Below, piece after piece: positions 7,216 through 9,303 of a stretch of 10,273 nt of DNA. The position numbers were made by a program, and so were the translations under genes. Every line of letters begins with the position of its first letter. Position 1 is the stretch's first letter. The stretch is from a virus. The DNA lies in the IMG/VR virus record IMGVR_UViG_3300033463_003852; one strand, 5' to 3'. Below the pieces are notes generated by a model. It was not told the origin of the DNA. It worked only from the letters and a program-made list of their open reading frames with translations, and ran no database searches.

Positions 7216-7499
7216 TTATATATTCCTTCTTCCATCAAATAGCATTTAGCAGTATCTTGTATAAAATTAATAATCAAATCTTCAAGTTCTGGGGCAAGTT
7301 TAATATCATTATGACTTTTTAACCACTCGATTTGATAATCTCTGATGTTATGCACAATGTCTTTTTTTTGATCTGGCTCGATGGTCGGTGCATGCCGCAC
7401 TTCTTGCATGCATTCAGCAATAACAACTCTTGCACAATCACTAAATGGCTCTTTGCGAATTATTGCTTTTATCAGTGCGTCCGCATCAATCAATCTCAT
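7212..7499 (-). CDS. Array member: N-terminal 'MRLIDADAL...APTIEP' module plus a unique C-terminal region (95 aa).
   Basis: ATG 7499 with SD GGAGAGGGaacagg. The start lies inside the acidic tail/stop of the upstream gene with a 14-nt overlap. Sequence: MRLIDADALIKAIIRKEPFSDCARVVIAECMQEVRHAPTIEPDQKKD... The longer track start lacks an SD. Confidence 0.65.
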   Translation of the reverse strand: MRLIDADALIKAIIRKEPFSDCARVVIAECMQEVRHAPTIEPDQKKDIVHNIRDYQIEWLKSHNDIKLAPELEDLIINFIQDTAKCYLMEEGIYK

Positions 7500-7908
7500 C
7501 CTGTTCCCTCTCCATCTGCCATCCGCAATTCGGGCAGTAGTTCGTTGTTGTTGGCATCCCAAAAACTGTGTAAATTGAGTAACCACACTCTGAACACTGA
7601 TATGTGATACTATTAGGATGTGAAAACAAACCTCGTTCGTGTTTACCTATCCACTTCCCCTTCCGCTCTGGATGTGACGCAAGCCACTGTATGATTGCCT
7701 GTCTGCTGTCGGTATGTTGCATCCCATAGTCGGTAAAAAGCCATTTTAGTTTTTCGTACTGTTCCTCTGGTGTAAGTCCAGACAGAAAATTCCGCTCTGG
7801 CTGTGCGGATAAGGCTTGGATTGCTATTTCAACAGCTTCGCAAAGATCAGTAAAACAGGCTGACGGATAATTATGTTTTAAAACGTCTATCGCCTCTTCT
7901 CTCGTCAT
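7486..7908 (-). CDS. Array member: zinc-ribbon protein (140 aa) with CxxC...CxxC at the C-terminus and an acidic tail EREQDEID.
   Basis: ATG 7908 with SD GAGGTGAcaaaa. ...YQCSECGYSIYTVFGMPTTTNYCPNCGWQMEREQDEID. Stop is TGA. Confidence 0.6.
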   Translation of the reverse strand: MTREEAIDVLKHNYPSACFTDLCEAVEIAIQALSAQPERNFLSGLTPEEQYEKLKWLFTDYGMQHTDSRQAIIQWLASHPERKGKWIGKHERGLFSHPNSITYQCSECGYSIYTVFGMPTTTNYCPNCGWQMEREQDEID

Positions 7909-7918
7909 TTTTGTCACC

Positions 7919-8068
7919 TCATTTTTTATTCAACGCATCTGCAATCCGTGACAGCTGATAGTTAATATTTTTCAAATCTGTATGATAATCGTATGTGTGC
8001 GGTATGCTCCAACCTATCGCTACGGCAATCATTGCCCCAACAAGTATAATTGCATTTGCTGTTGTCAT
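7919..8068 (-). CDS. Small membrane protein (49 aa, one TM), absent from the supplied ORF track because it is under 60 aa.
   Basis: Hand translation: MTTANAIILVGAMIAVAIGWSIPHTYDYHTDLKNINYQLSRIADALNKK. ATG 8068 overlaps the upstream TGA as ATGA. The SD is GGAAGGTGAgcagga, the same motif as other array starts. Its own TGA sits in the SD of the next gene. Confidence 0.5.
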   Translation of the reverse strand: MTTANAIILVGAMIAVAIGWSIPHTYDYHTDLKNINYQLSRIADALNKK

Positions 8069-8403
8069 TCCTGCTCACCTTCCTCTCGGTATGGCTCCGA
8101 CAACGACATCCAAGCAAGAACATTACTCGGCAATAGTTCTGTCCCCAAATCTGGCACAGTAAACCATTCACCATCTTTATAATAACCTGTTACAATCCAA
8201 CCATTATCAAGGCATATTTGCACTCTAACAGGCGTGTCCGGCAGACGCTCACTGCACGGAATCCACCGCTGTTCTGGCTCGATGGTGGGTGTCTTATCAA
8301 CAAGCCATTCAACCAAGACGCCAAAGTCTTCATACGACTTTTTCATACCCTTCGCCTCATGATGTGCTTTCTCTATCAGCGCATCCCCATCAATCCGTTT
8401 CAT
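8065..8403 (-). CDS. Array member: MKRIDGDAL N-module plus a DUF551-like C-module (WIPCSERLPD...AWMSLSEPYREEGEQE), ~112 aa.
   Basis: ATG 8403 with SD GAGGTGcgat. The alternative ATG 8415 adds 4 aa. ...TPTIEPEQRWIPCSERLPDTPVRVQICLDNGWIVTGYYKDGEWFTVPDLGTELLPSNVLAWMSLSEPYREEGEQE. Confidence 0.65.
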   Translation of the reverse strand: MKRIDGDALIEKAHHEAKGMKKSYEDFGVLVEWLVDKTPTIEPEQRWIPCSERLPDTPVRVQICLDNGWIVTGYYKDGEWFTVPDLGTELLPSNVLAWMSLSEPYREEGEQE

Positions 8404-8653
8404 ATCGCACCTCATTTCCAGATACTCCGTTGCATCTTACGGCAAATTTAAGTGCTTTTATTTCGCCCTTCATGCTATCGTTCTGTCTGCTCAGATATTC
8501 AATGTGTGCTTTCAGTTCTTCGTACATCTTTTCCATTTCAATGTTACTTGTTACAGTCGGAGCATTCTTCACCATGTCAGCTATTAACTCACGGCTGTCA
8601 AGTTTATCTCTGTATACATGCTCCAGAAGCGCATCCGCATCAATCAAGCGCAT
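8390..8653 (-). CDS. Array member: MRLIDADAL N-module plus a short coiled coil (87 aa), with no DUF551-like module.
   Basis: ATG 8653 is 1 nt after the upstream stop, with SD AAGAAGGTGAttgat. MRLIDADALLEHVYRDKLDSRELIADMVKNAPTVTSNIEMEKMYEELKAHIEYLSRQNDSMKGEIKALKFAVRCNGVSGNEVRYETD. The 94-aa N-terminal extension in the ORF track has no SD and overlaps the upstream gene. Confidence 0.6.
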   Translation of the reverse strand: MRLIDADALLEHVYRDKLDSRELIADMVKNAPTVTSNIEMEKMYEELKAHIEYLSRQNDSMKGEIKALKFAVRCNGVSGNEVRYETD

Positions 8654-8654
8654 A

Positions 8655-9035
8655 TCAATCACCTTCTTCCCGATAGGCTGACGGTAGTGGCATCCATGCA
8701 AATACGTCATCGTCATCAAGTTTTCCAAATAACATATCGTTCCATTCTTCTTTTCCGCTTCGTGGGTCGCGTGACCTATGTGCCGTACACACGTTAGGGA
8801 GATTTGACCTAAAACCCAATGCTTTTTTAGAAACGAGTACATATGTTCCAACTTCTGGCAACCTCTCACTGCATGGTATCCATTGCGGTTCTGACGTGAC
8901 AGTTGGTTGACACACCACAATCGGAGTAACAACATCTGACATAACTGCTTGAATTATTTTTTCTTTTTGTTTATCTGCGATTTCCCATCGCTTTAATAAA
9001 TCTTCACAAAGTTTGTCAGCATCAATCAGTCTCAT
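8655..9035 (-). CDS. Array member: MRLIDADKL N-module plus a DUF551-like C-module (WIPCSERLPE...FAWMPLPSAYREEGD), 126 aa.
   Basis: ATG 9035 with SD GGAAGGTGAacagg. It overlaps the Lar-like gene's acidic tail by 14 nt. Confidence 0.65.
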   Translation of the reverse strand: MRLIDADKLCEDLLKRWEIADKQKEKIIQAVMSDVVTPIVVCQPTVTSEPQWIPCSERLPEVGTYVLVSKKALGFRSNLPNVCTAHRSRDPRSGKEEWNDMLFGKLDDDDVFAWMPLPSAYREEGD

Positions 9036-9303
9036 CCTGTTCACCTTCCACATCCCTAACTTTTTCTTCGCAATATCTGACAAGTATATTCTGTTCGTTC
9101 CAATACTTCACTGCTTCATCAACCGTCATTGCCAGTTGTGCAACGGTAGCACCGCACTTTGAACATTCCAAACGCTTGAATAGAATCATCGGTTCTCTGC
9201 CATATTCAGACTCATACCATCCGTCAGGGTAGTCCTGTTCAGGAATGGCGTAATGTACATATTTCGGTTCTCCACCGCAAAGTTTGCATCGTTTAGCTTT
9301 CAC
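9022..9303 (-). CDS. Lar-family restriction alleviation-like zinc-ribbon protein (93 aa) with an acidic tail EGEQDETD.
   Basis: MKAKRCKLCGGEPKYVHYAIP...KRLECSKCGATVAQLAMTVDEAVKYWNEQN matches my recollection of the Lar family pattern: CPFCGG...(strand)...C..CGA......EAI.AWN. GTG start 9303 with SD GAGAGGTGAacagga. Confidence 0.6.
   Translation of the reverse strand: MKAKRCKLCGGEPKYVHYAIPEQDYPDGWYESEYGREPMILFKRLECSKCGATVAQLAMTVDEAVKYWNEQNILVRYCEEKVRDVEGEQDETD

What the first reader, a model, noticed from the sequence alone, without database searches (positions are those of the whole stretch)
7476..9036. Conserved overlapping junction cassette: the stop codon of one array gene is embedded in the 'MRLID' start of the next
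At three junctions the TGA of the upstream gene lies inside the ATT-GAT (I-D) codons of the downstream gene's MRLID start. The SD for the downstream gene is encoded by the upstream acidic tail. Junction 1: the zinc-ribbon gene tail E-R-E-Q-D-E-I-D-stop (gag agg gaa cag gat gag att gat tga) contains ATG AGA TTG ATT GAT GCG GAC (MRLIDAD, start 7499). Junction 2: the Lar-like tail E-G-E-Q-D-E-T-D-stop contains ATG AGA CTG ATT GAT GCT GAC (start 9035). Junction 3: ...R-Y-E-T-D-stop contains ATG AAA CGG ATT GAT GGG GAT (start 8403). A fourth start (8653) has the same MRLIDADA coding sequence 1 nt after a TGA. The SD-spacer motif GGTGA(A/G)CAGGA recurs at 9035, 9303, 8068 and 7499. This ~25-30 bp module is both a translational-coupling device and a likely homologous-recombination joint. 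New C-terminal or N-terminal modules could be swapped through it.
Basis: seen in the sequence. Interest (0 to 1): 0.5.

Follow-up and report, generated by a model that had tools for sequence, protein, structure and literature searches.

The report
Overlapping stop-in-start gene junctions, phage array
In a gut-phage array of small genes, each gene that begins "MRLID" carries the previous gene's stop codon inside its fourth and fifth codons; this layout is shared by hundreds of Clostridia phages, probably links translation of neighbouring genes, and marks the points where gene modules have been swapped.

Summary
On the minus strand, three junctions (D|E 9022-9035, F|G 8390-8403, I|J 7486-7499) are 14-nt overlaps with the upstream TGA inside ATT-GAT of an M-R/K-x-I-D-A/G-D start. 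A fourth (E|F) has TGA-T-ATG.

It is a family-wide habit, not a window-specific cassette. In codon-unbiased scans for MRLIDADAL starts, the upstream ORF ends on that embedded TGA in 67/115 viral and 40/99 bacterial-genome cases. ATGA overlaps account for another 21 and 20.

Ile4 is ATT in 84-88% of cases, against 42% in the same genes' bodies. It is ATT in 88/88 cases where an upstream ORF arrives in that frame, against 41/61 where none does.

Upstream of the ATG only a Shine-Dalgarno signal is conserved. The head itself varies at synonymous sites, so it is conserved as protein.

Identical gene bodies sit behind unrelated upstream genes, and vice versa, with similarity breaking at the edges of the head.

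Best reading: a compact, probably translationally coupled gene boundary of a known kind in an unusual -14 register, which also coincides with mosaic joints. Neither coupling nor homologous recombination was tested. Modest interest.

The parts
9022..9035 (-). 14-nt overlap D|E. ATGAGACTGATTGA holds the start of E (9035) and the stop of the Lar-like D (TGA 9022-9024) inside codons 4-5 (ATT GAT) of E.
9036..9049 (-). SD plus spacer for E (GGAAGGTGAACAGG), translated as ...E-G-E-Q-D in the tail of D.
9009..9035 (-). Conserved head of E: MRLIDADKL (27 nt).
   Evidence: repeat families D3/D8
8655..8665 (-). E|F junction. SD AAGGTGA (8659-8665) and the stop of E (TGA 8655-8657) lie in GGT GAT TGA, then one base, then the ATG of F at 8653. 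The same string GGTGATTGATATGCGCTTGATTGATG is present in L211.
8627..8653 (-). Conserved head of F: MRLIDADAL. Arg is coded CGC here, a synonymous difference from E and J.
8390..8403 (-). 14-nt overlap F|G. ATGAAACGGATTGA holds the start of G (8403) and the stop of F (TGA 8390-8392) in ATT GAT.
8377..8403 (-). Head of G: MKRIDGDAL. SD GAGGTG lies at 8408-8413. The gene caller's longer start at 8415 has no SD and is not supported by the family alignment.
8065..8079 (-). G|H junction. GGTGAGCAGGA (8069-8079) is followed by an ATGA 4-nt overlap (8065-8068).
9304..9317 (-). C|D junction. The stop of C lies in AGG TGA. GGTGAACAGGA (9304-9314) is non-coding here and sits directly before the GTG start of D (9303).
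7486..7499 (-). 14-nt overlap I|J. ATGAGATTGATTGA holds the start of J (7499) and the stop of Zn-ribbon I (TGA 7486-7488).
7500..7514 (-). SD plus spacer for J (GGAGAGGGAACAGG), read as E-R-E-Q-D in the tail of I. The 41-nt patch 7474-7514 is 83% identical to 9010-9050 although the flanking genes are unrelated.
7365..7499 (-). N-module of J (MRLIDADAL...APTIEPD, about 135 nt). It is about 80-90% nt-identical in unrelated phages. Identity begins at the ATG and ends after ACCATCGAGCCAGA.
8270..8291 (-). PTIEPE linker of G, 91% nt-identical to 7369-7390 in J. This is the second module boundary, between the N-module and the C-module.

Best explanation
These are the gene boundaries of a densely packed, probably co-transcribed array of small two-module accessory genes. 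The N-module is 'MRLIDADAL...PTIEPE'. The C-modules are DUF551, Zn-ribbon, coiled coil and others. The array sits downstream of the replication genes of a phage of gut Clostridia.

The conserved nine-residue head is usually coded ATG-AGA-YTG-ATT-GAY. That string contains TGA in both alternative frames: A-TGA-GA and C-TGA-TT in one, AT-TGA-T in the other.

Upstream genes have no stop of their own. They read through the SD, which they encode as their own C-terminal tail, and end on whichever TGA lies in their frame. Most often this is the ATT-GAY one, giving a -14 overlap.

Shown here: this layout is the commonest arrangement for the family, and the stop-creating synonymous codon is retained whenever it is in use.

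Inferred: a ribosome that terminates 11-14 nt past the next ATG, on an unstructured SD and start, re-initiates there (termination-reinitiation coupling). This would add to ordinary SD-directed initiation and keep the array's products coordinated.

Also inferred: the SD-plus-head patch is the only sequence shared by otherwise unrelated neighbours, so it is the place where module exchange between phages resolves. This could happen through relaxed homologous recombination in the patch, or through selection for gene-preserving joints.
For: Anatomy.

The arrangement is family-wide.
- 67/115 unique viral MRLIDADAL starts have the upstream stop at +11, and 21 at +1.
- 40/99 starts from one-genome-per-species bacterial contigs have the stop at +11, and 20 at +1.
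- Hosts are mostly Lachnospiraceae, Oscillospiraceae and other Clostridia.
- Upstream genes ending on the embedded TGA are diverse: Lar-like ...WNRRANDETD*, Zn-ribbon ...CPNCGAKMDGGDSDETD*, DUF551 ...AWMPLPEPYKEDDHETD* and many others.

Codon evidence.
- Ile4 = ATT in 88% (viral) and 84% (genomes), against 42% and 41% in the same genes' bodies.
- Leu3 = YTG in 79% and 80%, against 41-46%.
- Arg2 = AGR in 79% and 68%, against 57% and 46%.
- Ala6 and Ala8 third positions are nearly unconstrained (0.1-0.3 bit).
- ATT occurs in 88/88 cases where a long ORF arrives in frame +2, against 41/61 where none arrives (Fisher p = 2e-9). This replicates in each independent subset (p = 5e-5 and 4e-4).
- AGR occurs in 40/42 cases where an ORF arrives in frame +1, against 99/149 otherwise (p = 7e-5).

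Genuine starts and SDs.

No promoter or terminator excess in the array.

Mosaicism.
- J's N-module is about 80-90% nt-identical in a phi29-like podovirus and in three other unrelated contexts. Identity starts at the ATG.
- 23 downstream clusters each sit behind two or more unrelated upstream clusters, and 8 upstream clusters each precede two or more downstream clusters.
- Examples are identical through the head and unrelated immediately after it, such as L001/L011 and L055/L180.
- Near-identical bodies carry different synonymous head variants.

The review PMC12548453 states that coupling is most efficient at small or negative spacing and that -4, -1 and -8 are the generally enriched motifs.
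Against: - Coupling was not measured.
- The junction RNAs are unstructured (z -0.17 to +0.81) and the SDs are strong. Downstream genes could therefore initiate independently, and the 'RNA unfolding' form of coupling is unlikely.
- Retention of ATT when in use shows only that a used stop codon is under purifying selection, as for any gene.
- The residual ATT, YTG and AGR excess when the stop is not in use could reflect shared ancestry or N-terminal codon bias. GAT at Asp5 and Asp7 is also raised (68-83% against 58%).
- P-values treat loci as independent. They are deduplicated but not phylogenetically corrected.
- All heads were selected by pattern, so similarity necessarily extends through the head in every pair and crossovers cannot be placed within it.
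- Synonymous variation in the head argues against a strict DNA-level site.
Confidence: 0.65

Rival explanations
1. Neutral by-product. The head is conserved only because the protein needs it. Its commonest codons happen to contain off-frame TGAs. In a compacted phage array any upstream ORF that has lost its own stop simply runs to the first of them. There would be no coupling and no role in recombination.
For: - The head is conserved at amino-acid level, with free synonymous variation at Arg, Leu and Ala sites.
- AF2 places MRLID plus D5/D7 as an extended N-terminus and helix N-cap of a helical hairpin, so it is part of the fold.
- Only an SD is conserved upstream.
- The same array uses overlaps of 1, 4, 8, 11, 20 and 41 nt at other starts.
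- There is no RNA structure that would require unfolding.
Against: - 61-77% of family members overlap the upstream gene by 4 or 14 nt (88/115 viral, 60/99 genomes). The general rule is that, apart from -4, -1 and -8, adjacent ORFs are more often separated than overlapping (PMC12548453).
- Stop-creating codons at three separate positions are enriched 1.4-2.1-fold over the same genes' bodies, while the Ala sites are not.
- The codon-by-frame contingency is strong.
- Frame +2 is used twice as often as frame +1 (88 against 42; p = 7e-5).
Confidence: 0.28
2. A dedicated DNA-level recombination cassette: a fixed site recognised by a recombinase or homing enzyme, comparable to an attC-like or linker site, that moves gene modules.
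For: - A 41-nt patch is shared at 83% between the D|E and I|J junctions although the flanks are unrelated.
- GGTGANCAGGA followed by ATG recurs in several other phages before different genes.
- Mosaic boundaries lie at the patch.
Against: - No nucleotide conservation upstream beyond the SD in about 200 relatives.
- The head varies at synonymous sites.
- GGTGA(T/A)C matches the extended Firmicutes anti-SD complement (my own knowledge), so the motif is explained as a strong SD plus a purine spacer.
- No recombinase gene was seen among the called genes of the source contig stretch.
- Inverted repeats and site-like symmetry were not scanned for: the repeat search covered direct repeats only.
Confidence: 0.04
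3. A programmed +1 frameshift at GAT-TGA that fuses the upstream protein to the downstream one, since the downstream frame is +1 relative to the upstream frame.
For: Geometry only. Skipping the T of GAT-T-GAT enters the downstream frame. The proteins are modular.
Against: - There is no slippery codon. tRNA-Asp on GAU cannot re-pair on AUU.
- The SD is about 20 nt from the stop, not about 3 nt as in prfB (my own knowledge).
- 20-21 family members in each sample use ATGA instead, and others do not overlap at all.
- Each downstream gene has its own SD and ATG.
Confidence: 0.02

Closest known systems
Translationally coupled overlapping gene pairs (termination-reinitiation), as reviewed by Brown & Wade 2025 (PMC12548453)
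   Same: Co-directional genes, the stop of the upstream gene within a few nucleotides of the downstream start, and the SD inside the upstream coding sequence. The spacing is small and negative, where coupling is reported to be efficient.
   Different: The register is -14, not the generally enriched -4, -1 or -8. It is fixed by a conserved N-terminal peptide (I-D coded ATT-GAY) and is the commonest state for a whole protein family. Coupling itself was not tested here.
Chain of interlinked genes in the ninR region of phage lambda (Kroeger & Hobom 1982; recalled from my own knowledge, not checked here)
   Same: A run of small accessory genes between the replication and late genes, joined by overlapping stop and start codons. 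DUF551 and Lar-type genes are typical residents of such regions.
   Different: Lambda uses mainly ATGA-type joints and has no shared N-terminal head. Here the array is made of paralogous two-module proteins in Clostridia phages.
Short conserved boundary (linker) sequences proposed as homologous-recombination sites at phage mosaic junctions (Susskind & Botstein; Clark et al. 2001, as cited in PMC3029335)
   Same: A short patch conserved between otherwise unrelated flanks, located at gene boundaries, with mosaic breakpoints at its edges.
   Different: Most of the patch here is coding (the first nine codons) and is conserved as protein, not as a fixed DNA string. [quoted passage not shown] In this family one is identifiable at hundreds of them.
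DUF551 (PF04448) as a portable domain in mosaic phage proteins such as lambda/Stx Ea22 variants (PMC10834534)
   Same: C, E and G carry DUF551. The domain is joined to different N-terminal parts in different proteins.
   Different: The N-terminal partner here (the MRLIDADAL...PTIEPE module) has no Pfam or PHROG family and no structural match.

Membership tests
Translationally coupled overlapping gene pair | Co-directional ORFs with the stop of the upstream ORF overlapping or within a few nt of the downstream start | tested here: met
   Overlaps of 14, 14 and 14 nt and one 1-nt gap.
Translationally coupled overlapping gene pair | SD for the downstream gene lies inside the upstream coding sequence | tested here: met
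   AGGTGA or GAGGTG lies 4-6 nt before each ATG, inside the upstream tails. 97/99 and 91/99 relatives have at least 4 of 5 GGAGG bases.
Translationally coupled overlapping gene pair | Downstream translation depends on translation of the upstream ORF | not testable with these tools
   This needs reporters or ribosome profiling. RNA folding shows no occluding structure.
Conserved boundary sequence at phage mosaic junctions | A short sequence shared between otherwise unrelated flanking genes | tested here: met
   7474-7514 against 9010-9050 is 83% identical over 41 nt with unrelated flanks. The head is shared by more than 300 junctions comprising 252 upstream and 213 downstream clusters.
Conserved boundary sequence at phage mosaic junctions | Mosaic breakpoints between related genomes coincide with the sequence | tested here: inconclusive
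   Similarity is lost at -20..+2 in 184 pairs with the same downstream gene, and at +19..+33 in 8 of 12 pairs with the same upstream gene. All heads were selected by pattern, so the exact crossover cannot be placed.
Conserved boundary sequence at phage mosaic junctions | Conservation at DNA level beyond what coding requires | tested here: not met
   Six Arg codons, six Leu codons and near-random Ala third positions. Only an SD is conserved upstream.
DUF551 (PF04448) | Score above the Pfam gathering threshold (22 bits) | tested here: met
   C 40.0 bits, E 37.8 bits, G 24.0 bits.
Lar restriction-alleviation family (PF14354) | Score above the Pfam gathering threshold (28.6 bits) | tested here: not met
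   D scores 22.2 bits, E = 1.8e-4. PHROG 599 'Lar-like' gives E = 7e-7. D is Lar-like only.
prfB-type programmed +1 frameshift site | A slippery P-site codon before the stop, with an SD about 3 nt upstream | tested here: not met
   GAT-TGA offers no re-pairing, and the SD lies about 20 nt upstream. The prfB rules are from my own knowledge.

The most novel reading that the evidence does not exclude
The head ATG-AGR-YTG-ATT-GAY-GCN-GAY may be a selected, dual-purpose docking adaptor. First, it closes both alternative reading frames within 14 nt, so any gene placed in front of it terminates cleanly on top of the next start and is coupled to it. Second, together with the SD it supplies a patch of about 30-40 nt of near-identity through which relaxed phage recombinases shuffle half-gene and whole-gene modules between unrelated Clostridia phages. 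If so, a peptide motif would be maintained partly for what its DNA does.
Probability: 0.25. Interest if true: 0.6.

Novelty: new variant of a known kind. Interest (0 to 1): 0.38.

Why it matters
Overlapping stop and start codons, and SDs embedded in upstream genes, are textbook features. The local observation alone is therefore ordinary.

What goes beyond the textbook is threefold.
- One protein family imposes an unusual -14 register on its upstream neighbours across hundreds of phages and prophages of gut Clostridia.
- There is measurable synonymous-codon constraint in the overlap.
- The conserved head is one of the few cases where a recognisable short shared sequence sits at very many mosaic boundaries. 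The literature notes that such sequences are usually not identifiable (PMC3029335).

The family therefore offers a tractable natural system in which to test two things. One is termination-reinitiation at starts upstream of the stop. The other is homology-guided against illegitimate recombination in phage mosaicism.

There is also a practical point for annotation. Gene callers sometimes choose longer upstream starts, as for gene G, and sometimes miss small upstream ORFs.

Tried and rejected
- Megablast of the array against 50,697 GenBank phages found no match.
- tblastn of the N-module against the same collection found no match. No annotated relative is available.
- Pfam and PHROGs give nothing for the N-module, or for genes F, H, J and K.
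- AF2 of J gives pLDDT 78 and pTM 0.39. It is a four-helix model, and Foldseek against the PDB gives no match with E below 2.5. No functional lead came from this.
- Full-text search for the peptide RLIDADAL returned 0 papers.
- RNA folding of the four junctions gives z-scores of 0.18, 0.58, -0.17 and 0.81. I rejected a structured coupling element.
- The promoter and terminator scan shows no excess over shuffles and no minus-strand terminator-like site in the array.
- I looked for further M-x-x-I-D paralogues in the first 120 loci to get an unbiased codon sample. There were almost none beyond the pattern hits, so I ran a fully degenerate back-translated scan instead.
- I tried to place crossovers inside the head from mismatch profiles. 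The result is ambiguous because every head matches the search pattern. The one robust signal is that +14..+26 is 6-8 times more diverged than the body in otherwise near-identical pairs.
- A frameshift fusion was considered and rejected on sequence grounds.
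Full report
**1. What is in the window**

All genes in 7000-10273 are on the minus strand. Read 5'->3' on that strand, the array is as follows.

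| Gene | Coordinates (start->stop) | Description |
|---|---|---|
| A | ->10006 | DUF551-like C-terminus |
| B | 10025->9624 | |
| C | 9622->9317 | DUF551 |
| D | 9303->9022 | Lar-like, GTG start |
| E | 9035->8655 | MRLIDADKL head plus DUF551 |
| F | 8653->8390 | MRLIDADAL head plus coiled coil |
| G | 8403->8065 | MKRIDGDAL head plus DUF551 |
| H | 8068->7919 | 49-aa membrane peptide |
| I | 7908/7917->7486 | Zn-ribbon |
| J | 7499->7212 | MRLIDADAL head plus unknown C-module |
| K | 7215->7018 | |

Pfam places C, E and G in DUF551. D falls below the Lar threshold but hits the Lar-like PHROG 599.

The window comes from a 59-kb ENA metagenome contig (L202). There the array has about 24 small genes between a DNA polymerase III alpha gene and the NTP-transferase, ERCC4 and HD genes.

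**2.

- D|E, F|G and I|J are each 14-nt overlaps. The upstream TGA is the T-GA of ATT-GAT, codons 4-5 of the downstream gene.
- E|F is GGT-GAT-TGA-T-ATG.
- GGTGARCAGGA is present exactly three times, each time abutting a start codon. The expectation is 0.24, and 2 of 200 shuffles reach 3. The copy before J is a two-mismatch variant.
- The 41 nt spanning SD to codon 9 are 83% identical between the D|E and I|J junctions, although D and I, and the bodies of E and J, are unrelated.
- ATG-AGA also contains ATGA and CTG-ATT contains TGA. The usual coding of the head therefore closes both alternative frames within 14 nt.
- The source array has 16 overlapping junctions in all (1-41 nt). Its four 14-nt overlaps are all at M-x-x-I-D starts. 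These include one outside the window, MDPIDRQ at L202 3285.

**3. It is a family-wide architecture**

Many of them have long upstream ORFs ending on the embedded TGA.

To avoid codon ascertainment I scanned with the fully degenerate back-translation of MRLIDADAL, in viral contigs and in one-genome-per-species bacterial contigs.

| Sample | Starts | Upstream stop at +11 (-14 overlap) | Upstream stop at +1 (ATGA) |
|---|---|---|---|
| Viral, unique contexts | 115 | 67 | 21 |
| Bacterial genomes, plausible starts | 99 | 40 | 20 |

- Hosts are mostly Lachnospiraceae, Oscillospiraceae and other Clostridia.
- The upstream genes that end there are diverse: Lar-like ...WNRRANDETD*, Zn-ribbon ...CPNCGAKMDGGDSDETD*, DUF551 ...AWMPLPEPYKEDDHETD* and many unclassified ones.
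- By comparison, the general prokaryotic pattern is enrichment of -4, -1 and -8 only (PMC12548453).

**4. Starts and SDs**

- In 40/99 viral and 58/99 genomic members there is no alternative in-frame start upstream.
- In 32 and 40 members respectively an in-frame stop lies within five codons.
- Nearly all have a GGAGG-like SD.
- The homologue alignment begins at MRLID.
- The embedded ATGs are therefore the real starts, including MKRID for G, where the gene caller chose a longer start.
- Upstream of the ATG the only conserved signal is the SD, at 0.4-1.0 bit. There is no conserved upstream half of a 'cassette' across the family.
- The recurrent GGTGA(A/G)CAGGA is also found before unrelated genes in other phages (L031, L098, L207, L211, L322). 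It is best read as an extended SD plus a purine spacer. GGTGATC is complementary to the Firmicutes 16S 3' end (my own knowledge).
- Every C-module family has a conserved C-terminal tail that spells an SD: WNRR = AGGAGG, PEPY(K/R)EEG...MDGG / MRGEQD, and AERR.

**5. Is the embedded stop selected?**

| Codon and stop-creating choice | Viral | Genomes | Same genes' bodies |
|---|---|---|---|
| Ile4 = ATT | 88% | 84% | 41-42% (45-46% before GA) |
| Leu3 = YTG | 79% | 80% | 41-46% |
| Arg2 = AGR | 79% | 68% | 57% / 46% |

- Ala6 and Ala8 third positions are close to random.
- GAT at Asp5 and Asp7 is also somewhat raised (68-83% against 58%), so part of the effect may be N-terminal or ancestral bias.
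- The cleaner test classifies each start by whether a long upstream ORF is still open at the ATG, and in which frame. This classification does not depend on the downstream codons.
  - ATT is present in 88/88 frame +2 arrivals, against 41/61 with no arrival (p = 2e-9).
  - AGR is present in 40/42 frame +1 arrivals, against 99/149 otherwise (p = 7e-5).
  - Both results replicate in the two independent subsets.
- A stop in use is therefore maintained. Longer read-through overlaps are essentially absent.
- This demonstrates dual-coding constraint. It does not by itself prove that the motif exists for the stop.
- Frame +2 is used twice as often as frame +1 (88 against 42). I cannot explain this.

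**6. Coupling**

- The geometry is that of termination-reinitiation: an SD inside the upstream ORF, and a stop 11-14 nt past the ATG.
- The junction RNAs are not structured, and there is no promoter or terminator excess.
- Coupling by ribosome hand-over is plausible. Coupling by unfolding is not.
- Independent initiation at these strong SDs is also likely. This step is inferred, not shown.

**7. Module exchange**

- Homologues of J share only residues 1-45, at 80-90% amino-acid identity. They then carry DUF551, Zn-ribbon or other C-modules.
- At DNA level J's N-module is about 80-90% identical in a phi29-like podovirus (L205), a siphovirus-like contig (L208) and two others. Identity starts at the ATG and ends just after ACCATCGAGCCAGA (PTIEPE). 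The linker is also a repeat inside the window (7369-7390 against 8270-8291).
- Among 306 junctions there are 252 upstream clusters and 213 downstream clusters.
  - 23 downstream clusters sit behind two or more unrelated upstream clusters.
  - 8 upstream clusters precede two or more downstream clusters.
- Pairs with the same upstream gene are identical through the head and unrelated immediately afterwards, for example L001/L011 and L055/L180.
- Pairs with the same body lose similarity at -20..+2.
- A near-identical body (KKDLKSVTLSNGTLV...) is found with several synonymous head variants.
- In near-identical pairs the segment +14..+26 is 6-8 times more diverged than the body.
- All of this is what recombination resolving in or next to the shared patch would produce. 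However, every head matches the search pattern, so the crossover cannot be placed within it. Illegitimate recombination followed by selection for intact genes gives a similar picture.
- Free synonymous variation in the head rules out a strict DNA site.

**8. Comparison with the known**

- Mechanistically this is a translational-coupling-type overlap (PMC12548453) in an unusual -14 register.
- Architecturally it resembles lambda's ninR chain of interlinked genes (recalled from my own knowledge).
- As an evolutionary joint it fits the 'short conserved boundary sequence' idea. PMC3029335 describes that idea and notes such sequences are usually not identifiable at mosaic boundaries.
- DUF551 has already been called a portable domain in mosaic Ea22 proteins (PMC10834534).
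- The N-module has no Pfam or PHROG family, no structural match and no literature hit.

**9. Verdict**

  - SD-in-tail, true starts and module diversity are supported.
  - A conserved nucleotide cassette is not.
  - Coupling and a homologous joint remain plausible but untested.
- This is a new variant of known kinds and of modest interest. Its main value is as a clean natural system for testing reinitiation at upstream starts and boundary-sequence recombination.

Noticed in passing
window 7365-7499 (-); L205 3921-4055, L207 4001-4135, L208 4001-4135, L211 4001-4135: The 135-nt N-module of gene J (ATG to PTIEPE) is about 80-90% nt-identical in unrelated phage types, including a phi29-like podovirus. 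Both boundaries are sharp. This points to sub-genic, half-gene horizontal exchange.
   Followed up: partly
window 7369-7390 and 8270-8291 (-): The PTIEPE linker between N- and C-modules is a 22-nt repeat at 91% identity. It is where homologues switch C-modules (DUF551 against Zn-ribbon), so it is a second, intragenic joint.
   Followed up: partly
window 9317-9330, 8065-8085, 7486-7515 (-); L202 3530-3551, 3825-3846, 4040-4063: Each C-module family has a conserved C-terminal peptide that spells the next gene's SD: Lar WNRR = AGGAGG; DUF551 PEPY(K/R)EEG; Zn-ribbon ...MDGG / MRGEQD; 'AERR'. This is possible dual coding of protein tails and ribosome-binding sites.
   Followed up: partly
related loci, head positions +14..+26 (e.g. 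L007, L014, L157, L174, L192): In pairs whose gene bodies are at least 95% identical, the second half of the head is 6-8 times more diverged than the body, even when the upstream genes are also the same. This looks like a local exchange or gene-conversion hot spot and is unexplained.
   Followed up: partly
viral and genome samples: Upstream ORFs arrive in frame +2 (-14 overlap) twice as often as in frame +1 (ATGA), 88 against 42. This is the reverse of the general prokaryotic preference for -4. I found no explanation.
   Followed up: no
window 8403-8415 (-): The public gene call for G starts at the upstream ATG (MRCDMKRID...). That start lacks an SD, and the family alignment supports MKRID at 8403. 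Small upstream ORFs ending at such junctions also go uncalled in L207 and L211.
   Followed up: yes
window 9623-9664 and 10029-10070 (-): The two DUF551-like genes A and B end with a 42-nt repeat at 90% identity (AWMPLPEPWKGE plus SD AAGGGAGAA). This suggests a recent tandem duplication that includes the junction.
   Followed up: no
L202 3285-3551 and 4053-4583 (outside the window): A sister head motif '(L)IDRQAAI' is used by other genes of the same array. These also have embedded-TGA overlaps (14 and 11 nt). The wider family may be I-D-x-x-A-helix heads.
   Followed up: no
window 1551-3974 (-); L202 16649-19720: There is an 807-aa protein with an MVP_shoulder domain. Just beyond the window lies a cluster of RlaP, T4-type RNA ligase and KTI12/AAA_33 genes that looks like an RNA-repair set. 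This is unrelated to the finding.
   Followed up: no
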